Part shown: piece by piece, positions 8,736 through 64,000 of the stretch
How positions within the stretch are numbered: position 1 is the first letter of the stretch
Layout: each line of letters starts with the position of its first letter
NCBI RefSeq assembly: GCF_025526975.1
Contig: NW_026515704.1
Coordinates: forward strand, 62,001 to 126,000
From: Fimicolochytrium jonesii
Lineage: Eukaryota
Length of the DNA stretch: 64,000 nt
Direction: 5' to 3'
Notes under the pieces: model-generated
Seen by the model: the letters and a program-made list of their open reading frames with translations, nothing else
The model's database searches: none
Told to the model about the DNA's origin: nothing
Made by a program: the position numbers and the translations under genes

Positions 8736-9879
8736 TTTATCTTGTCGCTGCCTCCTCTTTGGCCGCCTTCCGGTTCCAAAGAGTGGCCTTATTTGGTGGG
8801 TACGTAGTGAAAGCCACGTTTATACCATTTTCAGCAACTGCAGGTTCCAACGCGTAAGGATTGAACGCGTAGGATTGTACCGTACAGTAATGTGCTGTCG
8901 GACAACTGTACTTTTCGCAGCCAGACAACAATGCACGATAGATATGTGATGTACAGCAAAGGTGGGACATGGTGTCTCTTCTGCCCCTATAAAGTTCCAG
9001 CATTGACTGGCCGGGCTGCCAATACTGGATTCCAAGCTCAAAACCGGACATGCAAGCGAGCACCGGGTCCCTCGTCGCAAACCGTAAAGCATGTTTTTCT
9101 CCCTTCACTTCAAAAATCGTGTTTTCTAGGAAATGGGGAGACCCCAAACCCAACACCAGTCAAAAATTAGCCTCCCACCCGCCCTTGTGGGGCGGGTGAA
9201 CCAAGCCCCATCGAACGGTTGTGCGATGCCGATGGGCCTCAGTCCGGCCCTGAGGTTTATGAGCACTCGGAGCCGTGAGCGTGTAAGTATGACTTTCAAC
9301 GGGGAAGCGCGGGGGCCTTGGATCTTTTATGGACGAAGTGGGGAAGCTTGGGAAATCCGTGGAACTGGATGGGCGACGAGCGGCGAACAATTAGTGGGGA
9401 AGTCACAGTCCCTCGCGAGCCCTCCGCGCTCCAAATCTTCACAAAGTAGGGCAAGCGCCCAAGTGTGATGTTACTCTAGGCGCCGCTTGCGGAGGCCGCC
9501 TTTGGTCAGCAGATGCATATCGATACACTGGATGATCGTGTGGTCTGGAGACCAGGTGGACAAGCGGAGTGGAACTAGATTGTTTCACGACAAACGGCCC
9601 TCTCCACACTTGGCGAGATTTGCACTCTTCTATTTTCATGAAACCCCGAAAAGGGGTGAATATGGTCGCGGGTACGTTACTTCCTGCACATCTCGGTACA
9701 AAGACAGATGTCAGGATCGATGGCGCTCTGTGGAGGTAGGCAGCCTCCCGAACTCTACACCCGTACAATCTTGGCGGCTACGAAAGGGTCGTATCGTCCA
9801 CACATCAACCGCCAACACTTAACGCCACGGATAACATTACGATAGTGTTCGACGGCGCCGCTCTGAGTAGTCGCGGCTA

Positions 9880-42113: not shown

Positions 42114-45045
42114 TCAAACCCACCCCCCGACATCAACGCCCAAAAGCAGATTATCAATGATCCTCGTGTTCCCAATCTTGACCGCGCCAGAGAGGATCGC
42201 ACTCGATGATGTCACCTCCTCTTTCGTGGCCTCCACTTTCCTTGCTGTACCCTCAGCGGACTTCGTTTTCGATTTGCTGCTGGTTCCGTTTTGTTGGGCG
42301 GTGGCGGTGGTGTCCGTGACGGATGCAGGTGCAGGTGTAACGACCGGATGTTGCCCATCCGTCCCCGCCTCCGCCTTCGCCGCTGGCGAAGAAGACTCGG
42401 ACGCAGCAGCAGCAGCCGGCTCAATCCAGTCAACCTCTCTCAACGAGTACGGATCCGCCAGACTCAAATACTCCAACACCACTTTCGGCGCCCCCTTCTC
42501 TTTCTCCGCCAGGGCGTCCTCAATCACCTTTTTCGCAGCGCCGATAACTTCCTCCCTGCTCACTCCCCGCTCGCGTTGTGTCTCATACACACCCTGCGCA
42601 GCCAGGAGAGCTTTATACAGCAGGGGTGCTTTTGCCCGTTCCGCGGTGGATAGGTACCTATTCCGCGAGCTCATCGCCAACCCATCACTTTCCCTGACAG
42701 TGGGGACCACGACGATTTTCAACGGGACGAGAAGGTCACGGACCATAGTCTTAACCACAGCGCACTGTTGGGCGTCCTTTTGTCCAAAGTACGCGTGGGT
42801 GGGTTGGACGGCGTTGAACAGTTTGGTAACGACCGTCGCGACGCCGCGGAAGAAATGAGGCCGGATGGCGCCTTCCATTTGGTGGGAGAGGCCGAGGACT
42901 GTTACGAATGTTCCTTGTTGTTGCGTGACGTCGAGCGTGATACCCGCGGGGTACATTTCGTCCACGGTGGGTGCAAAGACGACGTCGGTGGTGGCTGCTT
43001 CGCCGAGGAGTTCGAGATCGGTGGGGAGGGTGCGGGGGTATTTGGCGAGGTCTTCGGTGGGTGCGAATTGGGCCGGGTTGACGAAGATGGAGGTGACGAC
43101 GACGTCGCATTCGGAGGCGGCGCGGTGGGTGAGGTTGATGTGGCCGGAGTGGAGGGCGCCCATTGTTGGAACGAAACCGACGGTGAGGCCCTGGCGCGCC
43201 CATTGGGTGCGGAGGGTGCGGTATTCTGCAAGGGTGTGGATGACGAGTGGGTTTTGTCGGGCTGTTCCGTGTGTGACGGAATCGGTTGACAATCCTTCGG
43301 TGGTGGGGTCGGAGCTGGGGGTGGAATCCCGGCCGGCGACGGAGGCGAATGAGCGGGTTTGCGGACGGTTCGGGTTGTTCAAAGACGGCTTGATGGAAGT
43401 GCTTGTGCGCGGAGTATTTCCTACTCCCGCGATGCCGCTCGGTGGTAACGCCGGGTTTGTACCGTCCACCAGATTGACGTGCTCTGTAGAGTGGGTTGGT
43501 TTTGGGGGTGCGGCCGCAATCGTCGACGTTGCGCTAGGCTCCTCTTCCCTTGGAATCAAGTGCCCCAGCATCGGTTTACGTAGATAGGTATGAAGAACCT
43601 CCTCCGCGGGTGTCAAATGGACCCCCAAAGCTTCCAGCGTCTCGGCGCCCTCGCCAACCACGTTATCAAACTTGAGCAGCCTGACCTGGTCTCGAGTCAG
43701 CGTGAAGAGGTTCAGGGGCAGTTTCTCAAACACCATCCCCTGGACATTGCCCACGAACCAGGGCACAGAAACGACGGGTCGCCACATGTTGGCCTGCTGC
43801 AGCATGAGTTTCATCATGTCGGCGTATGTGTACACGTTGGGCCCCCCTGCTTCGATTGTTTTGCCGATGGGTTTGGGGGAGAGGACTGATGCCGCGATCC
43901 CTTTGGCTAGGTCTTCCACGTAGACAGGTTGGAATCGTGTCTCTCCTCCTCCAAAGACTGGTACCACCGGTAGGATCGTCGCCAGCTTTGCGAATCTCTG
44001 TAAACAAAAGGATTCAATCAGCAGCGTTTTCTAATGACATACGTTCGATGATTGGTTGGTTGGAAAACTAAAGGATGCCCTGCTCACTCCCCGCGCGACG
44101 AGGACATTGGACAGGATGGGCTATGGGCCAGTGTGGTGCTCGCTTCGCTCGCTGGGCACGCTAAGAGCCGTGATTAGGGGCATTGCGCCTTTGGCGCATG
44201 GAACTCGCTCCGCTCTCGTTCCCTCTGGTAGACTTCACGGTCTCCCAGACCGAACCAATCCTGCACCTCGCATCGCTCCTTGCAGACAACCACCCTCGCT
44301 CGCTTCACTCGCGTCTGCAACCTGCAATCCCTTTGCCCGCCGCAGCCAACTACCATCGCTCGGTCCGCTCGCGGCTCGCTGACAATCGGACTCACATTGA
44401 AGAAATCATCGTCGGGCCCAAAAACAATACTGGGCCGAATAATCGTCACCTCATCCCTCAACACACTCCTCACCGCATCCTCGCCCCTCCCTTTGCTCCT
44501 CGCATACGGAATGTCACTCTCCGGATCCGCTCCAATCGCGCTCACATGCACCAACCTCGCCCCAACCTCCTTGGCCACCTTCGCCACACTCCTAGGCCCA
44601 TGTTCATGAACACTGTCGAAGGTGTATTTCGGGTGTTGCTCGTGCATGATCCCAACGAGGTTGACGATCCCCGTGGCGTCGGCGCAGGCTTTGGCGAGGG
44701 AGGCTGGGTCGGTGATGTCGGCGTGGCAGGGGGGGAGGACGCGGGAGAGGAGGGAGGGTGGGGATGTGGGGGGGAGGAAGGAGGCTAGGTCGGATTGTTT
44801 GGTGGTTAGGAGGGGTGGGGATTTGGGGTTTATGCGACGGGAGGCGAGCTGGACGCGGACGGTGGGTGAGGCAGAGAGGATGGCGCGTGCGACTGATCTT
44901 CCGATGAAGCTGTGGAAGAAAGGGGACGAATGAGGATGTGCATGGGTACAGTTGCAATAGGCTTGAACTGCGGGACGTACCCCTGGCCGCCAAGGATGAC
45001 GACCTTGCCGCCCCCGACCGCAGCCGCGGCGTGAGCTTGGGACAT
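42114..45045 (-). CDS. Fusion protein (820 aa): NDUFA9-family SDR + linker + pantoate-beta-alanine ligase (PanC/PAN6); exons 45045..44981, 44909..44396, 43997..42114
   Basis: SDR: GGQGFIG, VNLVGI, HVSAIG, YARSK, IRPSIVFG, QPVYVEDLA. PanC: GFVPTMGALHSGH, SIFVNPAQF, RPHFFRGV, FGQKDAQQ, GLAMSSRN, RIIDN. The SDR C-terminal part and the whole PanC lie in one uninterrupted ORF. Confidence 0.88.
44075..44395 (-). repeat. Intron-resident dispersed repeat, homologous to 63379..63628
   Basis: Shared blocks in the same order: gcgacgagga, tggacagga, cgctaagagc.gtg.t.agggg.attgcgcc.ttggcgca.ggaactcgctccgctc, gtctcccagacc, cctgcacctcg, tcgctc.ttgcag, gcggctcgc. Confidence 0.9.
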
Positions 45046-45815
45046 TTGATCTATGGTTGCGAAGGTGGACGAACTGAAGCGGGCGTCAGCCAGAGAGAGA
45101 TGCAGCAAAGGGTAGGTGTAACGAGTACAGTATGCTATGGACCACGGGAGGCCGCTGCCAGGGGAGTGTTTGTTTGCGAATGCTGTCCCACTGGGGTTGT
45201 TGGCCGTGGTGATCTTCCGCGGGCGTGGGAAAGTGGAAAGCTTTGGTCTGGGAGCAGGTCTCGATCGGGAGGATCCCCTCAGCCCTGTGTCAACCCTAAC
45301 ACGGACAGTTGTTGCTCATGCACATGCGCAACGCATCTACTATACAGTATCTCATCAACTCCAACAGGCGGCATGATGAGAGGGGCATGGGCGCCTATAG
45401 ACCGTTCGTACCAAATAACGCCGATGCTTCCTTCATTTAGCACAAGCTCACTTGCATACGTTAGGAGGAATAGGAAGTTGGCATCGAAAGATTGGAAGGT
45501 ATGGGGTCTGATGAACGATTTGCATGGAACGAACAGATGCTGCCAACATAGCCTCAACATTCGGATTCTGATGACCCCGGCCATCCGTCTCGATGTGGAT
45601 ATGTGGATTCAAAGGATCGAAACGTGCGCCGTGCATGCAGGCCGTACAATCAGCAGGAGGACGGGAAGATGCCCGAGAAAGGCAGGGGGTGACTGACAGC
45701 AACCGACAGCAACATCCAGCGTGACTCAATCGCGCGCGTTGCGCTTCGAAAAACGTCGGTTGCTTCTCAATCACCACTCCCGTCGTCACTTGATTCCCTG
45801 TCCCAAGTTGCAGAC

Positions 45816-46515
45816 ATGGTACGTACCTGAACCACCCTTCCTAAAGAGACAGTTGTTACTTCGTCGGTTGGGTGGGACACAGAGCGGCTTGAGGTTCACT
45901 CGTCGACATGGTCACCTTTGTCGCGGAGAGTTCATGTTGGAGGACGAAGGAACAGGAAGGCCTGCTAGCTGAGAACAGATAGAGCTCCGAGGGACCCGGA
46001 GATAAGGGCGGTGGCAGCAGGCTATCCTCCTGTCTATCGATTTTGGGAGGATGAGAAGGGTCCTGGGTGACGACAAGTGATCTGGTCCGACTACCACTCC
46101 CTGACATCGGAGTCCTGACCATCGTTTCCTCCTTCCGTCAGTCCGCCGCCTACAAACAAGCCAGCAAGATAATCCCCCTCTTTGACCGGGTACTCATCCA
46201 GCGGATCAAGGCTCCCGAGGTAAGCCTCAACTTCCCTTGCCCTGTCACCCCACACTCCCACTAACCCCCTCCACCCCCCAGCGCACCGCCTCAGGCCTCT
46301 TCATCCCCGAACAGGCCCGCTCAACCCTCAACGAAGGCGTAGTCGTCGCCGTCGGCCCCGGCGCGCCATCAAAGGACGGTAGCAGCCTGCGCGCGATGAG
46401 CGTCAAGCAAGGGGAGCGGGTGCTGTTGCCGCCGTACGGGGGGAACACGGTTAAGATTGCGGAGCAGGAGTTCTTTTTGTACAAGGAGGACGAGATTTTG
46501 GGCAAGTTGGAGTAG
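45816..46515 (+). CDS. HSP10: Mitochondrial co-chaperonin HSP10; exons 45816..45818 (ATG only), 46142..46219, 46282..46515
   Basis: PLFDRVLIQR, TASGLFIPE, GVVVAVGPG, VLLPPYGG, EILGKL; ATG|GTACGT first exon gives MSAAYKQ in frame. Confidence 0.93.
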
Positions 46516-47092
46516 ATGTGAGGGATGTGGGGGATGTGGGATGGAGGCATGGAAAGGATATAGCGGTACGCAGATTAACGTAGGGCAAGGGATAGGCAGT
46601 CCGCCTGTAGGATCAGAGATGAGAGATGTGCTGCGTGTGCTTCCAAATAGCAGGCACTCTTCGCCGGTCATTCCGCTAGACACAGCGCTCATTGCTGGCA
46701 TAAGATCGGACGACTCGGATGGTCATACATAAACCATTTTGAACCCGGCTTCCCTTCGATGTTGCAATAGCACTAGGATCACGTGAGACGCGTGACTACG
46801 AGGCTTTTATTATCGCACGTCGCTCCATTTTCGGCGCTGCTTTTCTTCCCAGCTCTAAGTCGTTTACTCCACCACCCATCTCAGCGAAGAACCTACAGCG
46901 ACACTTCTTCAGCTTCTCAGGCCCGTGCGTCCATCAAACCAAATCAGAACTGAGGAAGTCACTCTAGGTTCATCGCCGTCGACATCCACCGTCCGACACC
47001 CCGCCCACCGCGAAGCAGCGGGGGTTCAAATCCTCTCGGTAAGTCTCTCCCTTCCTCCCGAAAGTCCATGGAAAAACAACATCCGTGACAGC

Positions 47093-47175
47093 GGCGCAAG
47101 ATGACTGCTTTGCCGCCCCAGGCGGAACCCATAGTGTCGAGAGCATAAGCGTTATTTCTGACTTGTCTGATGCCT
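47093..47175 (+). ncRNA. Box C/D snoRNA, snR67/U31-like (LSU rRNA 2'-O-methylation guide)
   Basis: Box C AAGATGA 47098, guide TGCCGCCCCAG 47111-47121 complementary to conserved LSU CUGGGGCGGCA, D' CGGA, box D CTGA 47167, flanking stem CCGTGACA/TGTCACGG. Confidence 0.8.
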
Positions 47176-47378
47176 TGTCACGGAGAGATGGTTTTTCTCT
47201 TTTCACACCGACTTGGAACCACTACGTTGAGGATGTGTCACTTACCCTTACGTACCCTTCTCCAGCCTTCACGTTTCTTTAGGTTACGGTCTCAAAACTC
47301 TCGGAAAGCGAACGAAGTCTCATCAAGCAGGTAAGCCTTCCCACCACCCACTCCCACGGCCCGGTAGAACAGCAAACC

Positions 47379-47474
47379 GATCTAGGATGAGACCCTTCAT
47401 GCACCACGCTTAGGACATCCCCGGATGTCGAGGCTGAGAAAACTGAAAACATACCATAGAAACTTTCTGAGATT
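47379..47474 (+). ncRNA. Box C/D snoRNA, snR40/U32-like (SSU rRNA 2'-O-methylation guide)
   Basis: Box C AGGATGA 47384, guide CATGCACCAC 47398-47407 complementary to conserved SSU GUGGUGCAUG, D' CTTA, internal hairpin GACATCC/GGATGTC, C' AGGCTGA, box D CTGA 47467, outer 12-bp stem 47363-47374/47477-47488. Confidence 0.78.
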
Positions 47475-48279
47475 ATTGTTGTTCTACCCGTTTGGAGGGA
47501 AGGATTGTGAAGTGTGAGAGTTGGTTTCGCTCACTCTTGCTGTTCCTTCGAATATAGGTTGATCCAATGAAAGGCGTTATGGAAACGGACTCGGGTGGAG
47601 ATTTGGGTAAGAGTAGCCGTTTGGGATTGGATGTCGTGGGGGATGGTGGTGTGGGGGGACGGGAGCTATGGGGCGGTGGCAAGGCGAGGGGATGTGAAGA
47701 CGGGTTTTTTTGCATGTTGTTTATGTCATTTGAAGTATAATATATGCATCTACCCGCAAACAATGCTTCTTGCCTGTACATGATTCTGCATGCCCCATGT
47801 ATCTATTTTATGTGCATCATGCGCCCCAGCTTCCCAAGTGACGCTTCCTGAGGGACATGTGGTGGCAGAAAGTAGCCCCCCTCGAAACGAGGTTGTGATG
47901 GTCATATTTGAGTAAGGTTTTCATGCCCCGTTTCCTTTCCTTGGCCATTGACCCACGCGAAGAAAAGGCGCTTAATAACAATTTAGCATCGCCACATGCG
48001 CTGTGGAGAGAAGGTTGAGGAGAAGTATAAACTGTGTACAGTATGTACATAGGAGGTGTCGGGCGCCGGTGAAGGGAAAACGTCCAAATGCAAATGCGCG
48101 CGTCCGATAATTGCCCTTGCTATTTGAAAGTTGCTGAGCGCGCCCCGCTTTCCTCCAAAATCCCACCCCTCACCAATTGACATTCCCCACCCTCCATCCG
48201 CACAGCAACACTCCCAGCACAGAGCGCTGTACCCAACCATCCCTCAAACTCCCTAACTTATATCCCCGAAACAGAAACA

Positions 48280-51200
48280 ATGTCAGACAGCGAAGACGAC
48301 GTCCCCCTCCTCGCGCGTCGCAGCGCAAACAAACCCACCACCACCACCTCCGACTCCCATCCACAATCACCCGCCAAACCCGTGAAAGACGAACCCGCCG
48401 CCGCCGCCGCCGCGCACGATGATGAATCGGAGTCGGAGATTCCGTTGGCGCAGCGGAAGAGGGCTTTGAGTGGTGGTGGTATGTCGCGAGAGAAGCTAAT
48501 GGGGGGTTCGGAGTCGGTGATTGATCTGGGGTTGGTTTTAGGGGCGAAAACGACGACAGCGAAGAGGGGGAAGAAGGTGGTTGAGTCGGACAGTGATTCT
48601 GATGTGCCTTTGGTGAGACTGCCGACGATTTCCAACGTTCAATTCAGCGTGGTGCTTTTACTCATTGCTGTGCTGTGTTCGTGTTCATAGGCGAAGCGGT
48701 TAAAGAAGGAACCGGCGGCGAAAGCGAAGACGAATGGGACGGCGAAGGTGAGACGTTCTTTTTCCGAGTTGCCTTGATATCTTGAACTTTAGAAACTGAC
48801 TCCTTTTTTTCCAACGATGAAGACAACGTCCCGAAAACGCACAAAAGCCGACGTGGACTCCGACACCAGCGACGCAGCGACTCCCGAAAAGAAACCGCGG
48901 AAAAGCAGCGCAAGCACCAAAAAGAAGGCGTCCAAAATCGACACATCCATAACACCCGTCGTCGTCAAAGAGGGCACGGCCGGCGATCCAGCGGCGACAG
49001 GCGCAGCAAAGAAAAAGGCAGGAAAGAAAGGGGCCGCAACGAAGGATGAAGAAGATGCGCCGGCTGCAGAGGAGGAGGATGATTTCAGCTGGCTGGACAA
49101 CATGAGCGCGGATAACAGCATCAAGTGGAAATCGCTGCAGCATAATGGCCCGCTGTTTCCGCCGCCGTATGAGCCGCATGGGGTGCAGATGAAATATGAT
49201 GGTGAGCGGGGTGGTTCACTGGCCTCTGTGGGTGGGTGGGTGGGTGATGCGCGAAGTGCTGACGCAGGCGGTTCGACAGGCCAACCGGTGGAGTTATCGC
49301 CGGATTCGGAAGAAGTCGCGACGTTCTATGCGGGCGTTATGGGCACGGATTGGGACCGGAATCCAAAGTTTCGGCAGAACTTTTTCAAAGACTTTCTGGC
49401 GATTTTGGCAAAGGATAAGAAGGTAAACCCAACAGATGGGATCTTGTGCACCTGGATTCGTGGTCAAGTTTCTCACCGCGATCTCTACCAAACAGAAACC
49501 GCCAATCAAGAAGATTGAAAAGTGTGATTTCTCTCCGCTTGCCGAATATCTAGCACAGGAGAAGGAACGGAAGAAGAATATGAGCAAAGAGGAGAAACAG
49601 GTGCGCGGTTGGAATCTCATCAAATGATAGTTGCCACGACTTGCCATCAGAGATAGTCGGAACTGACGCAGATGCATCCTCGCCATCCAGAAAATCAAAG
49701 AAGAAAAAGCCGCCTTAGACGAAAAATACGGTATCGCCTACGTCGACTCCCACAAAGAGAAAGTCGGCAACTACCGTATCGAGCCCCCTGGCCTCTTCCG
49801 CGGGCGCGGCGAGCACCCCAAAACCGGATCCCTCAAAACGCGCGTCCTCCCCGAGCAGGTCACCATCAACATCGGCGAGGACGCCAAAGTCCCCGACCCG
49901 CCCGCCGGCCACAAGTGGGGCAAAGTGATCCATGACCCGACGGTGACGTGGCTGGCGACGTGGAAGGAGAATGTGAATGATAATACAAAGTATGTTTTCT
50001 TGTCGGTGAATTCGAGGTTTAAGGTTGTGAGTGATCGCGCGAAGTTTGACAAAGCGAGGGAGCTTAAGGTTCGTGTTTTGCGCCCTGTGTTCTGTTGCAT
50101 TTGCGTCTCGCTTGGCCCTCCCCTTGCTGACTTGCAGTTTTATGATCTTTCAGAAAAAAGTGCACGAAATCCGCAAAGACTACATGCGCGAAATGAAAGA
50201 CAAAGAAATGGGCAACCGCCAGCGCGCAACCGCCATGTACCTCATCGACCAATTCGCCCTGCGAGCGGGCAACGAAAAAGGCGAAGACGAGGCCGACACC
50301 GTCGGTTGCTGCTCATTGCGATACGAGCACGTTATCCTGGAACCGCCTAACAAGATCCATCTGGATTTCTTGGGCAAGGACTCGATTCGCTTCTCGAAGT
50401 GTCTGACGGTGGAGGAGGATGTGTTTAAGAATATCAAGATTTTTAAGAAACCGCCGAAGAAGGAGGGGGATGATTTGTTTGATCGGTTGACTGTAAGTCT
50501 GGGGGCTATCTGCCAATCCCTATCATTACCTTGGCGATTAACCCTCTCCATAACGCGTTCTCTCTCCAGACGGCCTCGCTCAACAAACACCTCACAAAAT
50601 ACATGCCGGGCCTCACCGCCAAAGTTTTCCGCACCCACAACGCCTCGGCAACCTTCCAACTCAAACTCAACGAGCTGACCCCCGCCGACGGCACGATCTC
50701 CCAAAAACTCTACGCCTTCACCGAAGCCAACCGCCTCGTCGCCGTCCTCTGCAACCACCAAAAAGGCGTCGCGAAGAATTTCGGAGAAGCGATGGCGCGC
50801 TCGCAGAATGCCGTCCTTGGGGTCAAATACGAGCGGTCGTTAGTCAAAGCCCAGCTTCTTGACCTCCTAGACGCGAAATCGAAGAAGAAACGGCCGGAGC
50901 TGAGCGAAGCCGAGGAAGGGGTCACGCCCGAATTCATCAAGACGTACCTGGCAGCGAAAGAGGAAAAGGAGAAAGTGAAGCTGGAGAAGATGAAGGCGGA
51001 GAACAAGGAGGTGAAGGTGAAGAAGGAAGCGCCCGCGCCGACCGTGGAGCGGCTGGAGAAGATGCTGGTGAAGTTGAATGAGCAGGTGGAGGCGAAGGAG
51101 GAGATTGTGCGGAGAAAAGTACGTTGCATTCCATATCTCCCTCCCCGCTCCCTAAACATACATATTCACCGAAATGTATTCATCGTATTCAACAGGACAT

Positions 51201-51454
51201 GACGAAAGACACAGCCCTGGGAACTTCCAAAACCAACTACCTGGACCCGCGGATAACCTTCGCCTGGTGCTCCAAGCACGGCGTCCCCGTCGCGAAGGTG
51301 CTTCCGCAGGGGCTGAGGGTGAAGTTTAAGTGGGCGGAGGCGTATATTAAGAAGCATGGGGCTGATTGGGTATGTGTTGAAACGTTCGTTGGGAGCTTGG
51401 GGTCACTTTTCTGATTTTGAATGGCGGGTTTCTTTTCTTTGACAGCAATTTTGA
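48280..51454 (+). CDS. TOP1: DNA topoisomerase I (type IB), multi-exon
   Basis: [64 protein letters not shown], catalytic [11 protein letters not shown]; last micro-exon CAA TTT TGA at 51446..51454. Confidence 0.97.
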
Positions 51455-52326
51455 AAACAAGCAACCGCAGCCCCATCAATCTACCATGTGGGCCTAGCTC
51501 CCATATCGCAAACGATCCACCTTTGAAAAACATTACATCCCCCCCCCGGTCACCTTACGTTCTCCAGTGTAGAAGTGGTGTGGGGTGAGGACAACATCGC
51601 GCTCCTTTGTTCCCTACACTCTATTTCTATCTGGCTACCTTGGTTCGGGGGGGAATGAACTCTACACAATTTTCTCCGTATGACTGGTTGTGTATTGTAA
51701 TAAAGACATGGGACGGACCGGGGGGAGACATCCTCGCTATACCCGAATGGAAATTCATATTCTTTCAAAAATTCCTACAAAAAAAAAGTAAGAGAAATTT
51801 GTTCAGATCGCTACTCTTTTGACACGGAATTGCCAGAATGGCCTTCGTCTCGGCGGCCTCGCGCAGCCCGTGGTTTGACAGCAACTGACACTATTTACGT
51901 GTCGCGCGTCTGCTTCTGTCCTTACTCAATGGGCTAAATAACAGCCTAGATGGCCCGACATCCCTTTCGCAATTGCGATCCTTTTGGCGAAGAATCTACC
52001 CAGTACAAGCTGTGCGAGAGCAATGTCCGCATCCACACATTTTATTTAACTTCTGGTCAGTCCTTACCCTGCCTCCTCGTCAACCTACCTTGCTTCGTCC
52101 GTTGCAAAAGTCGAAAAACTCGTCCCGGTTCCTGGCGACAACAAGAACCTACATGTGAACCTACAATAGAAAGCAGAAAAAGCGCGCCACTATGATCTTC
52201 ATAAATCGCTCACAGCATGTTCGGGTGTCCCGCTGGAATCTGCTCGCGGTTTATCTCGCTTGGTGTACATTGGCGTGCGGGCACATCGCATCAGCAAGCG
52301 ACACTAACTCTCGCGGAATCGGCACC

Positions 52327-53059
52327 ATGACCACCATGCAATACCTCGCGACCGAGCCGTGTGCCGGTCCAAGCCATCCGTCCTGGGAGGCCGCACGGCT
52401 CCGATTAGTCCAAGCGGCAAAAGGTGGAGTTTGCGTATGTTTCTGGGGAAACCCGGGGAGCTTTCCGTCCCGATCTGACCACGACTTCACATTCCCGCAG
52501 TCGCCACAAGCGATGTCACTCAGATCAAGCTCAACCGGTTGATACGGTGTGACCCATCTGCGGAGCGCCAACTGGAGCTACGTGAACTTGGTACGTGAAT
52601 CGGGAGGAAGAGAGCCCGTTCTATCGCAATGCCCCCCCAATGTTGACTCCGCTGGCATTTATTTCCGAACGATTAGCGTCGGGGTACATTGGAAACACAC
52701 GAAGAGCCCGGCAGGCCCTCTGCCACTACCAGGACTCTGTGGTTTCGGTGGAGAGCCTGCAAGCCGAATTGCAAGATCTGGTCACACGGGGTAAGTGTGT
52801 TCTCGTCTTTGCTTTGTTTTTCATCAAATTGGCAGGAAAAAGGCGCGGTGCAAACTAGAATGCCCTTGCCTTCACCACAGTCGACGCGGTGGAGGACTAT
52901 GAGGAAAAGATCCTGCAGCTGTTGGAAGAAGCACGGCAAGATCCGCAGTGCTCCCAGTGGGCGGGGCGCAACAGTGTGTACGAAGGGGCTGCGGGATTGG
53001 CATCTGTCGCTGACGCTGGAGACATCGTTCTGCCGGATCCAGAAGCCATCGTGGCGTGA
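52327..53059 (+). CDS. Possible small spliced hypothetical protein
   Basis: Exon-like pieces bounded by splice signals (GTAAGT at about 52791, CACAG at 52880) with helical protein-like translation; no known motif. Confidence 0.35.
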
Positions 53060-53804
53060 ATTGCGATGTCATCGTCATGCTCACACAATTTTCCGTATGC
53101 GCTGTCTACAAACTCCCGAGTCACCTAATTACATATTATTTATTTGCGAAAATGTAAAATGAAATGTTCGTTACATGAAGCAATTGGTGTGTGCGCGCAG
53201 TGATCAAGCCGCCTGGAAGCATAGTCACCACTCTGGGTCTCAAGTCCTAGCAAGCCAACACCCCCCCACAACTGCTGTGCAAGTTCCTTCCTTTCACACT
53301 GGAATGACCACCAGGGCAAGGGAATCAGGCTTCGAGGCTTCAAGGGCTTTCCAAGCTGTAGATATTGTAAGCGCCCCACACTATCGCTTGAAAAAAAAAC
53401 TCCCAAAGTATCAATTGACGGGAGTATGTTAGCATCTTTGAAAAGCTGAAATTGCAACCAGAAGATTCTTGGTCGCTCGCTGCGGTTCCTCCACTTCGCC
53501 AATCGGAATTGGACGTGTACGGATGACATAAGCACCGGACGACGCGTTTTCGAACGACGCCCCGTTGACTGGAATATCCTGAACGGGGCGGGAGCCGAAG
53601 TCGCTCCATAAACCGGCGGGCGGGGATGCTGCTATGGCGTACAAAGCCCTGCGATAATTCATAAGGGTTCCTATCCCCATCCCTTTTGCATATCCCCGAC
53701 CGCAGCGGGCACAGAGCACAGAGTCCGCTAAAAGCGCCGGAGGACTCTGTCTGCTTTGCCAGCCATAGAACATACGCACATCAGGGGGCCACACACACAC
53801 ACTT

Positions 53805-56220
53805 TCACACCCGCCTCGCAACAGCTCCTACCTCCCCCAACCACCTCCCGGCCGCCTGCTCGTCCCCCGCACACTCCGCCAACGCCCGCACGCCCCAGCT
53901 CAGATCCCACCCCTTTTCCGCCAACCGGTCCGCGGCGTACCGCCGCAGCTGCACGGCGGGGTCTGTGACGATGCTGCAGAGGAAGTAGAGGGGGTGCGGG
54001 GGTGGGGTTGGGAGGTGGAGGGGTGGTAGAGGGGACGAGGGGGGAATGGGCGGGGGTGTGGTGGGAGGGGGGTGGATGAAGGCGTGGGGGAGGAGGGAGA
54101 GGGCTGTGAGGGCTGCTGTTGTTGGGTCGAGCGGGTGGGAGGTTGCTGTAGCGCAGTACTGTGGAAACCAACATCAAAAGAAACAGATAGATAGATATCA
54201 GCAAGGCAATGTCATCAATGGGTATGAGATGATACGACCCACAGAACGTACATGATTCCGACAAAGCGCACGTCCACACCCCTCGACCATCTGCCGATGC
54301 AGAACCTGCACCAGCTTCTGCGCAAATCTCTGATGTTGCGGGTCGTGCCGGGGTGACCAGAAGGTTCCGTAGCAGGTTGAGCACAGGCCGGCGGCGCGGG
54401 CGGTGGGTTTGGTGGAGAGGGGGTTGGAGCAGGATGTGTTTGTGCAGAGGGGGGGTGGTGGGGGAAGGGAAGCGAGAGATTGGGATGTGAGGTGGACGTG
54501 GAATTTTGCGTGGGTTTGGATGTCCTGATGTGGGAGATTAGAGTGGGGATGAAGAGTTATGAGGGTGTAAATGGTGGGAGAGACGAATGGTGTGAGACGT
54601 TTACGTTACCTTCATCTGCACAGCGGCCTTACACTTTGCACAAACGATCGTTCGTGCTCCACACTCGCTCTCATGGCTCGACATCCCGCCCAACAACAGA
54701 TCCTTCGGCAAAAAGCTCGGCGGGCCAGCGGGCAGTAACAAATGGCAGAACCTGCACACGTGCAGCCGATCAGGACACCGTTCACCTCTATGCGTCGCCA
54801 CGTCCGGTAAAAACAACTCCTTGCCGCACGTGCATGTCATGGGGGTGTGTATCCTGCTCATGTGTTTGTCGCGCGCCCCGGAGGAGATGGTGCCGATGAA
54901 GGGGCAGAAACCGCAGTGCCAGTGGTCGGCGGCTTGGGATTTAAGGAGAGTGGTGTGGCAGTGGGGGCAGGTGGTGTTGTTGCGGAGGCAGAAGGCGAGG
55001 TGCATGGGGAGGGTTTGGGAAGGTATGTGGGCGCCGCAGTTGGTGCAGCGGGTTGTGCCGGGTGGTGGTTCGGTTGTTGGCTCAGGCGGAGGGGGGACGG
55101 GCTCGTCGGTGGTCTTGGCGGAGAGGTCGTCGACTCGGACGTGTAATTGGAACTCGGACGTTGGGGAGACGCCCAGCACGCCGATATGCAGGATCGGCGC
55201 CTGAGTCGGATCCGGCACCTCTAATGAGACGACGGAGCGGCCGACGTCGACGTTGTAAGCTGAGTGATCCATTATGGAAGGTTTCTCCAAGGTTGTGGAC
55301 AGAAACACGTCCGCGTCGCCGTGGTGTGGGTCTACTTCGATGGTATATGTCGATGGGGAAGGTGTTGTCGGGATCTGGAAGTATATGTACTCGTCGGCTT
55401 TTACTGAATATGGGGACAATGAGGACGCGGTCCGCCCTTCTGCGTCCCAGGAGAGTTGGATTGGTCCGCCGCCGCCGCCACCAGCTTGTTGCGGGGTGAA
55501 CTTTTTGCGTACCGCCGCTTCTGCCAAGCCGATGTCGAGAGGTTCGATGTCTACCACGACATCCTGATCGAGGATGAGACAGCCTGGGATCGTCTCTTTG
55601 ACGACATGCACCGGCTTCCCATTCTTCGAATTCATACCGGACATCCCATCCCGATCCTCTTCATCGCTGCTATCATCATCATCATCATCGACGACATCCT
55701 TCGACTCTGCCCTCAACTCTGCAACCAGAAACCGATGCTCATGCGCCTGCCGCGTCGACCTATGGATCTCGGTGATAGCCAGAATCTGCCCCTGCGTCAG
55801 CGTCGCGTAGTTCCTGCGCAGATGCGATTCGAGGGTGGATCTGATATCGGCAATCTCCAGATAATCCGCATCCAGCGGTGCCAGTTTCGCGTACGTGCCG
55901 CACGGGAGTGTGACTGTCGTCAACCGAACGTCCAGCGCCTTATTATCATCGTTATCGGTGGGCGGAAGGTTCAGCAACCCAAGTGATTCCGCTAGTGGTT
56001 TTCCGAGCTGTATCGTGCCTTCGTCGGCTGTAAACTCGCGGACTGTGGCATAGACTTTGAGACTGGTGTGCGGGCTGACGAGTTGGAAGGTGAGCGGGTG
56101 GGCATGGCGGTCGTCGTTGCCGACGAGGGAATGGAGGAGGTCGGCGGGGAGGTTGACTCGGTCGCCGGTAAGGGTTTCGACTGTTTGAGCTCGGAGGAGC
56201 CGCGTCCAGGGGGAAGTCAT
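53805..56220 (-). CDS. UFD1-domain protein with TRAF-type Zn-finger repeats and C-terminal UBA-like domain
   Basis: GDRVNLP...PLTFQL...VREFTADEG, LESHLRRNYATLTQG, repeated C-x2-C...H-x3-C units; last exon ends LAEKGWDLSWGVRALAECAGDEQAAGRWL...TGA at 53805. Confidence 0.85.
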
Positions 56221-57098
56221 CTTGGTGTGGGATCTTTCGTTTGAATTGCTGGCGGCGGTGTTCCAATGTCCGCTGAGCTATCTAGCGTGAATGGGGAGCA
56301 AAGTCTCAACCCGCGCATATATAAATATGCCGACGGACCCGACGACACTGCCTGTGACTTCCAGAACCTTCCCTCCCCTGTGCGCCTGAGTGCTGTATTG
56401 GTCAGGTAGTGCCGAGTGAGGATTAGAAATGCAAACGCATTGGGGTCCCTCGAGCGACGCGCAAGCCCTGAGACTGTTGAGGTGTGGCTTCGGACGGGCA
56501 GACGGCGCAGCGGCCACTCTCGCCTGCTGCACTCCACTACGCACAACGAACAACGAACAACGCAATAGACTGGAAAGAACCGCACATACTGGCACTGTCC
56601 ATGCGGCAAGAGGAACTGGTCACCGACTCAGGAAGCAGCTTGTGCGCCCAACGAACAGTGTCGTTGGTCTCTCCCAAAACTCAGTCAGACCACACAACTC
56701 CGCCCCGAAAACTGAGCGGGGTTTGAAATGTGCATTGGCGACACTACTCTTCTACCTGCGAAATGCATAGGAGTCGGTCAGGACCGCTGCTGGGCGATAT
56801 GAGTGGGACTACGAATGTGAGTTGCGCATTTGGAAGTAGGGGGAAAGGCTTTGCGTATGGGCGCAGGCTTTTTCGGGCTGGAACGCTACAGCACAGCACA
56901 CGCTCATTCTCTCCCGTTTTGAATTCTGGAAATCGACTTATATGGGGCTACTTGTTCCCAGAATTTCTCGGCCAAGTGAGTACAGCATCCCTCCATGGGG
57001 GGACTCAGGAGTATGTCGGTTTGCTCTCTCGACTGTGAGCCCCACACATCAAAACATAACCTCACACCTCCCTCCTCTCCAACTTCAGCCTCAGCCAA

Positions 57099-57798
57099 AT
57101 GTACACTCGCCCACGAGCCGCCCTCACCTCCCACGCTACATTCCTGCACTCGTTCGCCAACCGCCTGCTCCACTCGCGCTTCTGGAAAGCGTTCTATATC
57201 GCCATGCTGGTCATGAGCGTGACTTGCCTCGTCTGGGCTTATTATGTGCCATGTCCGGGGGCTTGGTTTTATGTGTTGGAGGTGTGCGTCAATGGTGCGA
57301 TGTTGGTTGAGGTGGGAGTACGGTTTTGTGCACTTGGGAAGGTAAGCGATGGGCGCGAGCGAAGGCCCATCTACGTAGTTCAATCTCCTTGGGCATCCCT
57401 TCAACCATCCAACCCTCTAACCAACCTTGGCTTTGTTTCATTTTCGCCTCGCTTCGATTTAGCACTTCTGGACAAGCCCCTGGAACCTGCTCGACCTGGC
57501 CCTCACGCCGATTTGCCTAGTAACCCTCTTCCTCCTCCTCCTAACCCCCTGCTCGCCGTCACGTACCGACGAGATGGAATTCGAAGACATCCTCCTCGTC
57601 GTCCGCAACGGCGTCGTACTGGCGCGGTTGCTGTGGGTGCTGGGAAAGAACAGGGAGCGGGTGCTTGGGGGTGGGGTGAGGAATATCGATTTGGGTGGGG
57701 TTGGGGATCTGGATCTGATGGGGGATGTGTTGCCGGGGGGGAAGGGGTTGCCGATGTGGGATAGTGCGGCGTGGGAGGGGGGGGATGAGTTGTTTTGA
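57099..57798 (+). CDS. 192-aa four-helix ion-transport (voltage-sensor-like S1-S4 only) membrane protein; exons 57099..57341, 57463..57798
   Basis: Phase-0 intron GTAAGC..TTTAG; S2 E-x9-E-x3-R, S3 FWTSPWNLLD, S4-like DILLVVRNGVVLARLL; no pore helices. Confidence 0.7.
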
Positions 57799-58115
57799 GA
57801 CGACTGAGGGGATCGTAATGGGACTGAATGGGGGGAGGATATTTATCATATTATAGACATATTATCTGAGACTCAAATCCCGCATTATACATACATATTT
57901 TCTCATGCTTGGCACAAACGGATTGGGATGGGGACCGGTAACATTGCCTTTGTACTGTAGAAAATGCTCCAGTCCACACGCGCAATGCCGTCAGTGAGTC
58001 ACGGTGAGTCACGCGGGTGCTGTCAGAGGGGGTCACCAGAGCGCTTTTCCGCTTCAACTTGCGCACTCCCCCTTCAAGCACAACAAACGTACTACCCAAG
58101 AACTACGTAGTAACC

Positions 58116-59551
58116 ATGACCGGCGTAAAACGCTCCGTCCGTCTCCTCTCCGGCGCAACATCTACCATCTCCCCCTCCCCATCCGCGACGGGAGTTAAGC
58201 CGCTACGCACAGCATCCAGGTCTGGGTCCATCTCTCACCCGTCTTATGCATCTTCAAAAAACTTACCTCCCGCGCATGTTGCTCTCTACGTCTTATCTAG
58301 CTTGCTGGTATGTGCGCCGATAAGGAAGCCGAGTGACGGTGGAGCGGATTTCAAGGTGTTGATGGTTAAGAGGTGTGTGTGGTCCTTGGGTGGAGGGGGT
58401 GGAGGATAGACTGGCGCTTTTGCTGGTTCCGCCTATTCGAATCCATTTCCGCGGAGGACCTGATATTTGGGGGTCTCTCTTTTCCCTTTTCCATTGAGGG
58501 TATTTGAAGACAGGCGCGAGGATCGTTCGGGTCTATGCACGCGTACCCTGGTAAGTTGAGGAGCGCACCTTCTTGCAGATGTGTCAACCGTCTTCAAGTG
58601 AGCTGGATCTCACGGTGCTCTTCTCCCTCCAGGCGGGGTCGTAGATTCCTGCGATAGCGACGCCAAATGGGAACAGCTCACAGGCCGCACATTAGCCAAC
58701 CAACGGTAACGTCCCTACATCATCCACTCCTACCAAACACCTACCAACCCCCTCTCCCCAAGCATTCCACCCGACACCCTCCCCCTCCGCCTCGCCGCCC
58801 TCCGCGAAACCTTCGAAGAAACCGGCCTCTTCCTCACCCACCCACCCCTCCCCCTCCCCCCACAAACATCAACCCACTGGCGCCACCTCATTCACACCTC
58901 CGGGCACGAATTCCACACCCTCTGCACATCCCTGTCTGCGGCCCCACGCGTCAACGCACTTGTATTGTGGGCAAACTGGATCACGCCTGTTGCGCAGAAG
59001 GCGAGGTTTGATACGTTTTTTTATTTGACTGTTTTGGATTCGGCGGAGGGACACGATGTCAGCGCGGATGGGACCGAGTGTACCGAGGCAAGGTGGTGGA
59101 CCCCACGGGAAGCGTTGGAGGCTTATCAGCGGGGAGGTACGTACGTCCATGTGCATGTGCATGTGTATCCCATCCATCTCCCTCCTTTTGTATGCTACCC
59201 CCCTTCTCACCCAGGCAACGTTCAATTTCTCTTTCAGAAATCTCCCTAATCGTCCCGCAATACCTAACCCTCCTCGAACTCTCCCACCTGCACCTCTCCG
59301 ATCTGCGGTCCTACATCTCCGGTGAAACACGCCGCACGGCACAGCAACTCGCGCCCATATGTCCTGAACCGCTCTCGAGTGCCGACGGGTTGCTGACGAT
59401 GGCGATGCCGGGCGATTGGGAGTACCCGGGATGTTCGAGCGAGGGGTCCGACGGGAAGCCGCTGAATCGGGTAAAAATCAGAGTGGAGGGGGGCCGGTTT
59501 GTGGAGATTCGGCATGTCTGTAACGGTGGGGAGCGGGGGTCGAAGTTGTGA
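58116..59551 (+). CDS. Nudix hydrolase, NUDT19-like (putative acyl-CoA diphosphatase), multi-exon
   Basis: KVLMVKR, AYPGGVVD, AALRETFEETGL, WANWITP-x5-RFDTFFY, PQYLTL. Confidence 0.85.
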
Positions 59552-59839
59552 TTCGATGTGGGAGGTGGGTGATGTACGGACAGCTCCCCCTCTCGACGCT
59601 TTTGTTATAGACTTTACAGTAGAGCCACAAGCGTAGACACCTGTTCTGCATTCGTGATAACTCACTCCTCGTGACACTGCCGTGAAGCTGGGGAGATATG
59701 CACACCACACAGGTACCTCGTAGTGTGTAGATGTATTATATGGATGCTGTACATGTAAATGATCTTGTCGTATTGTTTATCGTCTATGCGTTAGTCCCCC
59801 AAACCCGCTACGATGCCGAATCATGTGGGGATTTGGGTT

Positions 59840-62800
59840 TCACCGCCGACCATCAACAACCCTATGCTGCACACCCCCGCACGAAAAGAAAAAAAAAAAC
59901 CATCATCAGATCCCCCACACACACACAAAAAAAAGGGGGGAAACCCTCAAGCCGGTCAAAAACACCCACCTGCAACACACACCCGTCCCCGGCGCCCGTC
60001 GAGAACACCCACCGTCCATCCACAGACACCGCCACGCGCCCGACGGGGCCCGCGTGCACCGTGTACGTATACGCCGGTGCCTGTATCATACGCACATCCC
60101 CGCGTCAGCTCATGCGGATATGTGAGGGTGTCTGAGTTGATGAACACGTACCCCCTCGGCACAGGCCGGATACCGCAACAGCAGCACATCCCCGCGCGTC
60201 GTGCCCATGACCACGACCTTGTCGGGGTCGGGTGCCGGTGAGGGGGGCGTGCCGCGGGCCGTGCATACCACCTTCACGCCACAACGCGTAAAAACAAATA
60301 TCAGTTTCCAGAGGGGAACGGGGCGCTGGGGCAGACAGACTCACATCGCGTAACCCCAGCACACACCCTTTGCTCGCAAACAAGTCCGCGCGCGCCTCGG
60401 CCGAGTCCAGCACGCCTCGGAGCTGGATCTTCCAGTCGTCGGGCGTGGTGGGGTTGGTGGGGGCGGCGGGAGAGGAGAGCGCTGTTTCCCCCGACACGTA
60501 CACGCCTTTTGTCGCCCACGAGAGCGGACATGTGGCGGAGGCCCAGTCGACTTCGGCGAAGGGCGTCGGCGGCGGCGGCGGGTGCGTTGCCATCGTCCCT
60601 TCCCAAAATTCCCACCCCACCCCACGTCAGCATCAAACACCTATTGTTTCAAAAAAAAAATAAAAGGTTGTTTCGGGGGCACTCACAAAACATGATCTCG
60701 CTATTCCCACTATTGCTCTGCAACCGTTTCGAGTCCACACTCCAGTCCAGCGCCGACACGAAATTCGAGTGCCCGCGGCAACACATCACGCGCTGGTACC
60801 CGCTCCCGTCGGCGCCGGCGACGCTGTACACGTCGATGATGGCTTCCTGGGTGGCCGCGGCGAAGAGGCGCCCGTCGGGCGAGTAGGAGACCGCGTGGAT
60901 GGTGTCGCGGCGTTGGGTGATGATGAAGAGGGTGGAGGTTAGCGTCGGGGTTAGGATGAAGATCTGCGCGGGGAGAGCCGGGGGGTTAGGTCGGGATTTC
61001 GGAGATGGGGCATTGGTTTTTTACGTACGGTGCCTTGGTCGGACCCGACGGCGATCTGGCGGGCGGAGGGGTCGTAGGTGCAGGAGCGGAGGGGCATTTT
61101 GAGGTTGCAGCTTGTTATCTGGGCGGGTCCACGTACACCAGCTGATCAGCCACCGGAAGGTAAGAGGTAATGAGAAACGCCAAAACGAACCTGTTTCCGC
61201 TCCTCGACAGCCCACTGCCGGATGAACCCATCATTCCCGCACGTCAGCAGAAGCCGCGGGTTGGTCGGGTGTGGGGCGAGACCCCATACGCCGGGATTCG
61301 TTTGCGATGCGTGCGACTTTTTTTTGTTCATTTTTGGGTAGTAGTTGCAACTTAATCAGCCAACCGCCCGTCACCACCTCTTAAATCCGTCCAAACTGTG
61401 TGAGAGACACCCAATATGAACTGTTACCTCAGACAGCAAACTCTTATTCAGCGTCCCCTCCTCTCCAATCTCCACAACCCATAAGCTCCCATCCCCACAC
61501 CCAACCCTCACACCCGCCCCCGTCCTCTTCTTCTCCCCCCCACCCCTCCCGAGCCCCTTCGATCCCGTCTCCAAAGGCGTCAACCCCAACGCCCGGCTCG
61601 CCCGCCGTTTCATCGCCTCGCCCCAGCCATACCACACCCCGCCCAAGCCGCCGGCGTCGACGGCGCGGACGGGGGAGTCGAGGGTGAGGGTGGAGATGGG
61701 CGTGAGGACATCGTTGAAGAGGAGGAGGGTGTGGTCGGAGCCGCCGGTGAGGAGGGTCAGGGTGGGGTGGAGGAGGGGTGTGAGGGTTAGGGTTTGGCCC
61801 TGCGTGGGTGGGGGAGGGGGGCGGGGGGGGGGGGGGGGGGTCAGTAAGCCGACAAAATGGGAATGGGGGGGGGGGGGGAACATTGGTTTTCTCTGTCGTA
61901 CCTTGTGGACCGCCCGAGAATGGCTCTCGATCCGATCACCTTTCCAAAACACCACGTCCCCGTTCGCGGTTCCGACCGCAAGCACCCTCTGCCCCTTCGC
62001 GAGCGTGAACGCCGCGCACAGGACCGTCAACGCAGCAGTCGCGGCACCGTGATGTTGCTCCCCGTCCCTGGCCCACCCGGCCGGTCTAGACGTCAACGTC
62101 AGGGTCTGCGACAACAGCGGCGCGTCGATCGTCCAGAAGGAGAGATGCCGCAGCCCGCCGACGATGAACTCCCGCCGCGACCAGGGGTTGAGCGTGAGGG
62201 AAAACACGGGGGCGGGGATCACGGCGCGGGCGGCGGGGGCGCGGTGCTCTGCGGCCGACCCGGCGGCGGCGGCGGAATGGGTTCCCGGGGCAAGTTTCCG
62301 CCACTCGTACACGAGCACCTCCGCCTCATCCTCCCTGTTCCCCGCAATCACCAGCGTGGTCCCGTCCTTTGCAAACGTCATGGCGGACACGCTGTGGATG
62401 GGCTCCGGCAGGACAGCGGTCGCCAGCACTGTCAACTGCAGCTCGCTGTCCGGCTGGTCAGACCCCACCCGAGGGTCTTTCCCGCTGAAGCTCGTCCCCA
62501 ATGGCGTGCCTGGCTCGGGCGACACGGCCCTCTGCCCGACCGATATCGACATTCTCGTCATTTTGCGCCCCGATGACGGACCGTGATGGCCGGGGGTTTC
62601 GACAGCCCATACTTTGACGACCGGCGCCGGGCCCAGCTCGGCTGACGCGCCGATCCCGCCGTCGGGGTGGATGCATATGGCAGTTATGGCTTTTACGTGG
62701 TGCCGGAAGTAGGAGGGGTGTGGGCTTGCATCCGCGGCGATAGGTGGCTGGGATACGTCTGGGGTTTCTGGGATCGGTGCGGTGCGACTTGGTGACCCGG

Positions 62801-64000
62801 CAGCAGCTGTTATGACTAGATGGTTCCCGGCGGGGTGGACGGTTACCAGCCCTCGCGGGTGAGATGGTGGGTACAGATGATGGATGTTGGATCTTTGCGC
62901 TTCCGACGAGTAGCCTGTCGGATGGGAATCAAACATGAGCTGGATGTGACGGGTGTCGCAAACCTGCATGTGCTGTTTGACCTCACTTACCATAAATGTG
63001 CGCTAGTTGCAGAGAACTTGATGGGAGGGTGGTGTTGATGGAGTTGGCGTAGGTGGAGGGTACCTCTATGTGTTTTAAAAACGCTAGATTCGACTGATAG
63101 GGTGCTGGAATGAGCGGTTGTTCTTCCCGAATTCGCATCTCCAGGAGTCCTCCCTTCCGCTACGACTGGAAACGGCCGGCATGAAATCAACTACTCGCCT
63201 GCTCTCTAAACTCATCCAACCATGCTTGCTCATTCATCGCAAACGGAATCTCATTCTCCAGCGCTAACCCCAAAAAGAAACATTTTCTTTAGTGTCAATG
63301 TTTCCGTCAGACCCATCAAGCCATCAACCCATCGACATCCATCAACCATGATCCGTCAACTAACTATCCACATACAACATCCTGTTCGCTCCGCTCGCGA
63401 CGAGGATGCTGGGATGCGGTGGACAGGACCGCACTCGCTAAGAGCGGTGGTCAGGGGTATTGCGCCGTTGGCGCAAGGAACTCGCTCCGCTCGCGCTCGC
63501 TTCGCTCGCAAGGCTTTCGCTTTGGTCGATCTAGCAGTCTCCCAGACCAAACCCAACCCTGCACCTCGCCGTCGCTCGTTGCAGTTCAACACCCCCGGCT
63601 CGCTCTCGGTCGCGGCTCGCCTACTCACCAAGCAAATCCTCATCCCCACCGCCATCCGTCCTCTCCCCATCCTCGTCGACATCCCCACTACTACCGCCTC
63701 GAACCCTCGTGGTCGACTTGACCGACGAGGTAGAAGACTTTGCGGACCCCTTTTTGCCTACATGCGTTTTGCCAAGGTCGTGAAGTGACGGGGCGGTGCG
63801 ACGGCGGGCGCGGATGCGGGCGGGCCAGCAGGGGCAGGAGCCGGTCATCCCTTTGTGGACGGTGGAGGGAGGGGATGGATAGTATGCAAATAGGTTGTGC
63901 CTGGGGCGTAGTCGGTTGTCGCTTCCCGAGGGCCCGCGGACGTTCGCTTCGAAGTGCGGAGGTGGGCAGGAAGGAGCAGAACGCGTCGCTTGATGACACA
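59840..64000 (-). CDS. EML/EMAP-like WD40 microtubule-associated protein, multi-exon; 5' end probably at or beyond window edge
   Basis: RSNIHHL, YFRHH...ICIHPDG...ASAELG, VWGLAPHP...LTCGNDG, GHSNFVSALDWSVDSKRLQSNSG, DWASATCPLSW, HAGPVGRV...STGAGDGCVLQ. Confidence 0.8.
63379..63628 (-). repeat. Intron-resident dispersed repeat, homologous to 44075..44395
   Basis: Same ordered blocks as the copy at 44 kb; begins just inside a GTGAGT donor at 63628. Confidence 0.9.

What the first reader, a model, noticed from the sequence alone, without database searches (positions are those of the whole stretch)
43998..63628. Two introns in unrelated genes are homologous over most of their length: introner-like or intron-targeting element
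Seen: intron 43998..44395 of the SDR-PanC gene and the intron starting at donor 63628 in the EML-like gene share colinear blocks over about 250-320 nt, in the same orientation relative to transcription, with similarity reaching to within about 10-15 nt of the GTGAGT donors. They contain a hairpin TGCGCC-NT-TGGCGCA. Known: introners create many sequence-similar introns. Inference: an intron-generating element or a structured RNA family resident in introns.
Basis: partly seen in the sequence, partly recalled or inferred. Interest (0 to 1): 0.75.

Follow-up and report, generated by a model that had tools for sequence, protein, structure and literature searches.

The report
Hairpin repeat inside old chytrid introns
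Two long introns of a chytrid fungus carry related 240-300-base stretches of predicted hairpins just after the splice donor; one of the two introns is ancient, so the repeat did not create it and is likely a small mobile element that settles in existing introns.

Summary
The similarity is real. The SDR intron (43998-44395, -) and the EML intron (donor 63628, acceptor probably 63264, -) share about 240 colinear nt, 173 of 213 aligned bases identical; score 177 against at most 50 in 200 shuffles. The introner reading fails: the last 81 and 117 nt are unrelated, no TSD or TIR is seen, and the SDR intron position (FFN|RF, phase 0) is occupied in 62 of 80 orthologous loci from other fungi, by 46-110-nt introns. 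The EML position could not be tested. The host is a chytrid (Fimicolochytrium jonesii protein 100% identical), for which a published screen lists 0 introner families. The shared DNA is an array of hairpins capped by GAGCG[A/G]AGCGAG, a predicted DNA mini-hairpin. A profile finds three further fragments in the window, all in sense introns, none between genes. Best reading (0.55): a non-autonomous, strand-specific hairpin element inserted just behind donors of pre-existing introns, probably moved as single-stranded DNA by an unidentified enzyme. No genome, reads, outside relative or transposase was found.

The parts
43998..44395 (-). Host intron 2 of the NDUFA9-like SDR gene, 398 nt, phase 0 at FFN|RF; ancestral fungal position
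   Evidence: junction; 62 of 80 orthologous loci carry an intron here
44075..44379 (-). Hairpin element, SDR copy (intron nt 17-321), five capped-hairpin motifs
44318..44376 (-). Decayed tandem duplicate of the first ~60-nt module, only in the SDR copy
   Evidence: score 48, 0 of 1000 shuffles
44184..44198 (-).
   Evidence: sequence
44075..44107 (-). Last stem-loop of the element, SDR copy; two pairs differ on both sides from the EML copy
63264..63628 (-). Host intron of the EML-like gene, 365 nt if the inferred acceptor is right; age untested
63375..63620 (-). Hairpin element, EML copy (intron nt 9-254), three motifs plus a 10-bp outer stem
63461..63475 (-).
   Evidence: sequence
37773..38114 (+). 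342-nt first intron of a HECT ligase gene with three motifs and a fragment matching the element's last stem-loop (38006-38049)
   Evidence: E 0.004
21992..22204 (+). 213-nt intron with modules matching the element's first and last parts, plus one inverted module
   Evidence: 31 nt at 90% to EML; E 0.028
21511..21645 (+). 135-nt intron with a weak fragment, sharing blocks with the 37773 intron
   Evidence: E 0.074

Best explanation
The shared DNA is likely a non-autonomous mobile element made of strand-specific hairpins, which sits 8-16 bases behind the splice donor and likely inserted into introns that already existed. Shown: the SDR intron is ancestral; removing the element leaves about 94 nt (SDR) and about 120 nt (EML), near the 78-nt median of 44 ordinary introns here; all five copies or fragments are intronic and sense. 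Inferred: each GAGCG[A/G]AGCGAG unit folds in single-stranded DNA as a GNA-triloop mini-hairpin on tandem G.A pairs, which the opposite strand cannot form; the element is copied in trans by an unidentified single-strand (HUH/rolling-circle type) enzyme, and module duplication and shuffling give the mosaic fragments, as in bacterial REP/BIME arrays. The position behind the donor on the non-template strand would come from targeting of transcribed DNA or donor-like words, from selection against insertions that disturb the branch point and acceptor, or both. The copies are spliced out with the host intron and are probably neutral.
For: Ancestral position: 62 of 80 loci with a GT-AG intron at the same junction, 46 distinct introns, 46-110 nt; 6 without (5 GC-rich bacterial-type, 1 unbroken fungal-like ORF), 12 undetermined. 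Unrelated 3' ends. Profile built from the two introns finds 3 more hits at E<=1 in the window, all in sense introns, while introns are 9.3% of the window; 0 hits in 291 kb of other fungal loci. Motif with <=1 mismatch: 13 of 13 hits in four sense introns (motif chosen after seeing them). In 233 distinct viral contexts the motif behaves as a hairpin cap: 215 are preceded by the C that pairs with its last G, and the next pair out is Watson-Crick in 169 of 215 (shuffles mean 85, max 106), with all four pair types. GCGNAGC mini-hairpins are very stable in DNA and occur at single-strand origins and N4 promoters (PMC13037366, passages).
Against: No mobilising gene: 37 window ORFs scanned, no transposase family. 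No defined termini, TSD, TIR or Helitron ends. No relative outside this window. Whole introns and cores fold no better than shuffles under standard models (z +0.40 and -1.75; cores z -0.15 to +0.92). Paired motifs in viral contigs are about 190 against 43 for a broken-hairpin control, only about fourfold; viral contexts are partly related to each other. With 2 mismatches 3 of 17 intronic hits are antisense and 8 lie outside genes. Only 1 of 5 host introns was tested for age, and no chytrid orthologue was among the loci. The RNA melting figure I saw is for the four-base-loop variant, not the triloop.
Confidence: 0.55

Rival explanations
1. An intron-encoded structured RNA family (snoRNA-like or stable lariat RNA) that has been duplicated into other introns; sense orientation reflects function.
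For: Strict sense, intronic location; two double changes keep the last stem and a 10-bp outer stem closes a multibranch fold in the EML copy; this genome seems to host other RNAs in long introns (box C/D-like pairs at 45819-47557, read from sequence).
Against: No Rfam match at E<=1; folding not better than shuffles; the SDR outer stem has two mismatches, the SDR copy a decayed duplication and the other copies are fragments; orthologous introns of other fungi are 46-110 nt and lack it; no shared box C/D or ACA seen in the alignment.
Confidence: 0.2
2. An ordinary decayed MITE or Helitron-derived repeat that inserts without preference; intronic sense copies are what selection and a small sample leave.
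For: Only two long copies and three weak fragments in one window; a terminal hairpin is a Helitron feature (PMC3627910, passages); antisense copies would add pyrimidine-rich cryptic acceptors (inference).
Against: 0 of 5 hits in about 24.7 kb outside gene spans against about 6 kb of intron; no TIR or TSD.
Confidence: 0.15
3. An old introner or introner-like element whose 3' ends have decayed; the SDR copy re-created or replaced an intron at an ancestral site.
For: Similarity begins 8-16 nt from both donors, both GTGAGT; sense orientation; fungal introners also lack TSD and TIR (PMC9860276 section 8).
Against: Ancestral SDR position in 62 of 80 loci; 3' 81 and 117 nt unrelated while the core is 81% identical; 0 introner families listed for this species (PMC12130899 supplement 7).
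Confidence: 0.1

Closest known systems
Introners / fungal introner-like elements (PMC9860276, PMC12130899)
   Same: Sequence-similar introns in unrelated genes, sense orientation, no TSD or TIR as in ascomycete families.
   Different: Similarity does not reach the 3' boundaries; the tested intron position is ancestral; such secondary insertions are what the introner pipeline filters out.
Bacterial REP/BIME arrays with RAYT transposase (PMC2817692)
   Same: Short imperfect palindromes arranged in mosaic, duplicated and shuffled modules in non-coding DNA; pairing kept by complementary changes. A works-like comparison only.
   Different: Eukaryotic and intronic; modules nearly all in one orientation, not alternating; no GTAG head and no RAYT gene found; no sequence match in prokaryote genomes.
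Non-autonomous Helitron / Helitron2 elements (PMC3627910)
   Same: Subterminal hairpin, no TSD, strand-specific insertion next to a short motif.
   Different: No conserved 5'-TC or CTRR-3' ends and no 8-15-bp asymmetric inverted repeats found (longest inverted word 5-6 nt); internal array of capped hairpins.
GCGNAGC mini-hairpins at single-strand origins and N4 promoters (PMC13037366)
   Same: Same core motif, GAA and GGA loops, one strand only; same capped hairpin recurs in viral contigs.
   Different: Match is limited to the 12-30-nt motif; no homology of the rest of the element.

Membership tests
Introner | Similarity extends to within about 10 nt of both splice boundaries in both introns | tested here: not met
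   3' 81 and 117 nt unrelated; criterion from PMC9860276 section 15
Introner | Intron position is new, absent from orthologues | tested here: not met
   SDR position present in 62 of 80 orthologous loci; EML position not testable
Introner | At least four similar introns per genome | not testable with these tools
   No genome held; published screen lists 0 families for the species
MITE (TIR DNA transposon) | Terminal inverted repeats | tested here: not met
   Longest inverted word between ends 5-7 nt
MITE (TIR DNA transposon) | Target-site duplication | tested here: inconclusive
   Only 4-6-nt chance-level words; element ends are not sharply defined and copies are about 19% diverged
SINE | tRNA/5S/7SL-derived head | tested here: not met
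   No Rfam match in either intron; A and B boxes not scanned separately
Helitron / Helitron2 | 3' subterminal hairpin | tested here: met
   Last stem-loop in both copies
Helitron / Helitron2 | Conserved termini (5'-TC, CTRR-3') or asymmetric inverted repeats | tested here: not met
   Ends printed and compared; none shared
REP/BIME | Palindromic modules in alternating orientation | tested here: not met
   13 of 13 close motif hits on the sense strand; inverted modules only at 2 mismatches
REP/BIME | Cognate HUH (RAYT) transposase in the genome | not testable with these tools
   None among 37 window ORFs; rest of genome not held
Intronic snoRNA | Rfam family match or conserved C/D or H/ACA boxes | tested here: not met
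Intronic snoRNA | Discrete stable RNA | not testable with these tools
   No run could be listed

The most novel reading that the evidence does not exclude
A eukaryotic single-stranded-DNA parasite built from mini-hairpins that recognises splice donors, or the displaced non-template strand just behind them, and inserts there in sense orientation, using existing introns as a safe harbour. Such an element is one step from an introner and could explain introner families of unknown mechanism.
Probability: 0.2. Interest if true: 0.75.

Novelty: new variant of a known kind. Interest (0 to 1): 0.45.

Why it matters
Repeats inside introns are common, and this one does not create the intron that could be tested. 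What is unusual is the combination: only in introns, only sense, right behind the donor, and built from DNA-type mini-hairpins. If that holds genome-wide it points to a donor- or transcription-directed insertion route that introner screens discard by design; about 72% of introner families have no assigned mechanism (PMC12130899 section 6). If it does not hold, it is an ordinary decayed repeat.

Tried and rejected
Whole genome not held. Sequencing runs: none was listed, no RNA holder listed. Rfam: nothing in either intron. Exact-pattern scans for the element: viral contigs 0, 0, 0, metagenome contigs 0, prokaryote genomes 0, 0. An 18-base pattern gave 9 viral loci, 8 in small 2.9-3.5-kb contigs, matching only over 15-22 nt: not homology. 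Translated-element searches for mis-annotated copies: none at E<=10 among 299 candidates; 2 hits, both tandem-repeat proteins, rejected; Atlas best 0.81, uninformative. Folding as RNA or DNA gave no signal over shuffles; these models probably do not credit the triloop cap. G-T pairs in one EML stem are two CG-to-TG changes, so I did not count them as evidence for RNA. Weak motif traces in introns 57342-57462 and 4837-4945 were not counted. My recollection that Parmales introners carry the same motif could not be tested: the motif has 0 hits in the 12 supplementary files searched, 2 files were not searched. Earlier scan notes: nothing for this genome or sequence, nothing relevant by words. Literature searches listed no description of this element; the library lacks most subscription papers and I did not see Repbase or Dfam.

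Full report
Observation. Both introns lie on the minus strand and begin GTGAGT. Apart from tandem repeats, theirs is the strongest dispersed repeat in the window (E 8e-21). Local alignment scores 177 against a mean of 29 and a maximum of 50 in 200 dinucleotide shuffles; the opposite orientation scores at chance. The core is SDR intron nt 80-317 against EML intron nt 12-248, 173 of 213 aligned bases identical, 18 transitions and 22 transversions. SDR nt 20-78 is a decayed duplicate of the following module, so similarity begins at nt 17 in SDR and nt 9 in EML. The 3' 81 and 117 nt are unrelated (108 of 500 shuffles score as well).

Host and gene models. The genes are chytrid. P0129, named Fimicolochytrium jonesii by its source, is 100% identical to the translated SDR exons on both sides of the intron and reads FFN-RFA without a break, which confirms the 398-nt intron. 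The second gene matches EML propeller families below their curated cut-offs. Its acceptor is inferred at 63264, in frame with the downstream SLQLAHIYG exon if a further 39-nt GC-AG intron is allowed; other in-frame acceptors lie at 63105-63003. No genome and no reads were available.

Did the element make the introns? I built an alignment from the part of the SDR protein downstream of the junction, so that the scan would not favour intron-less genes, and scanned metagenome contigs: 95 confirmed relatives, the best 80 returned. Of the 80, 62 have a GT-AG intron at exactly the same phase-0 junction (46 distinct sequences, 46-110 nt, median 54.5), 6 have none and 12 are undetermined. Five of the six are GC-rich and match bacterial-type proteins; the sixth is one unbroken fungal-like ORF, probably a transcript. 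The intron-bearing loci match basidiomycete or unnamed fungal-like proteins best, and one matches Ambispora (Glomeromycota); none is a chytrid. The position is therefore much older than this repeat. The EML position lies in a poorly conserved N-terminus and was not tested. The introner survey PMC12130899 lists 0 families for this species and for the other Spizellomycetales rows I looked up (supplement file 7). Its predecessor requires similarity at both boundaries and treats interior similarity as secondary insertion (PMC9860276 section 15). No TSD or TIR was found.

Is it an ordinary dispersed repeat? I called 52 introns by hand (5,950 nt, 9.3% of the window, median 85 nt). A profile of the two copies finds 5 hits at E<=1: the two seeds and fragments at 38006-38049, 22088-22120 and 21508-21552, each in a longer-than-usual intron and on the sense strand, and 0 hits in 291 kb of the fungal orthologue loci. 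Three of three new hits falling in 9.3% of the window has a chance of roughly 1 in 1,000 (my arithmetic), though each hit is weak. The motif GAGCG[A/G]AGCGAG with at most one mismatch occurs 13 times, all in four sense introns, none in about 24.7 kb outside gene spans; the motif was chosen after seeing these introns. At two mismatches the picture blurs: 40 hits, 17 intronic, 3 of them antisense, 8 outside genes. Subtracting the element leaves about 94 and 120 nt, close to the 78-nt median of 44 ordinary introns, with the insert 8-16 nt behind the donor.

Anatomy. Standard folding shows no excess stability (z +0.40 and -1.75 for the introns; cores at chance as DNA or RNA). The motif, however, is symmetric: a GNA triloop closed by two pairs, then tandem G.A, then a further stem. 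Independent data support this. Paired copies occur in about 190 viral stretches (estimate) against 43 for a permuted control, whose hits all have lengths divisible by three and look like coding repeats. In 233 distinct contexts from the 120 fetched loci, 215 have the predicted closing C and 169 of 215 a Watson-Crick pair one step further out (shuffle maximum 106); related viruses inflate these counts. GCGNAGC mini-hairpins melt at 76.5 C as DNA, a related RNA at 39 C, and they occur at phage single-strand origins and N4 promoters (PMC13037366, passages). Beyond the motif nothing in the viral loci resembles the element.

Mechanism. Shown: secondary presence in one ancient intron, mosaic modules, sense and donor-proximal placement in this window. 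Inferred: single-strand DNA hairpins as cis signals, movement in trans by an HUH or rolling-circle enzyme, and placement by targeting or by selection against insertions near the branch point. No enzyme was found. It works like a REP/BIME array (PMC2817692, passages) or a non-autonomous Helitron (PMC3627910, passages) but fails membership tests for both. I give this 0.55, a functional intron RNA 0.2, an untargeted repeat 0.15 and an introner 0.1.

What I read. PMC9860276: passages and sections 8 and 15. PMC12130899: passages, section 6, and searches of supplements (files 13 and 14 not searched; they may hold introner sequences that bear on the Parmales comparison). PMC13037366, PMC2817692, PMC3627910: passages only. 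Eight searches listed no account of this element. That tandem G.A pairs stabilise such stems, and that HUH enzymes act on single-strand hairpins in general, is recalled knowledge.

Verdict. A real repeat family in chytrid introns, not an introner at the site that could be tested. Its strand, position and DNA mini-hairpin build make it worth a genome-wide count, which would settle whether it is a donor-seeking element or ordinary debris.

Noticed in passing
window 42114-45028 (-): The NDUFA9-like SDR and pantoate-beta-alanine ligase lie in one open frame; Spizellomyces P0001 has the same fusion, and SDR proteins of Dimargaris, Tieghemiomyces and Sorochytrium are labelled as the ligase, which hints at a wider fusion or read-through. 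The database model P0129 covers only the SDR part.
   Followed up: partly
window 45819-46141, 47039-47282, 47331-47557 (+): Three long introns without the hairpin motif carry box C-like (RGATGA) and box D (CTGA) words; 46860-47700 may be a non-coding snoRNA host gene and the first Hsp10 intron may hold a snoRNA. No Rfam match.
   Followed up: no
window 9132-9290 (-): Divergent U1 snRNA (40 bits, below the gathering score) whose 5' end reads ACUUACAC rather than ACUUACCU.
   Followed up: no
window 63162-63200 (-), approximate: The EML gene model needs a 39-nt GC-AG intron, shorter than any other intron called here (minimum 57 nt).
   Followed up: partly
L010-L129: The capped hairpin GAGCG[A/G]AGCGAG recurs in pairs and arrays in very different viral contigs (giant-virus bins, contig termini, small circular genomes, phages), almost always on one strand per locus, with covarying stems.
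   Followed up: partly
window 57342-57462 (+) and 4837-4945 (-): Slightly long introns with faint traces of the motif near the donor; possibly very old copies.
   Followed up: partly
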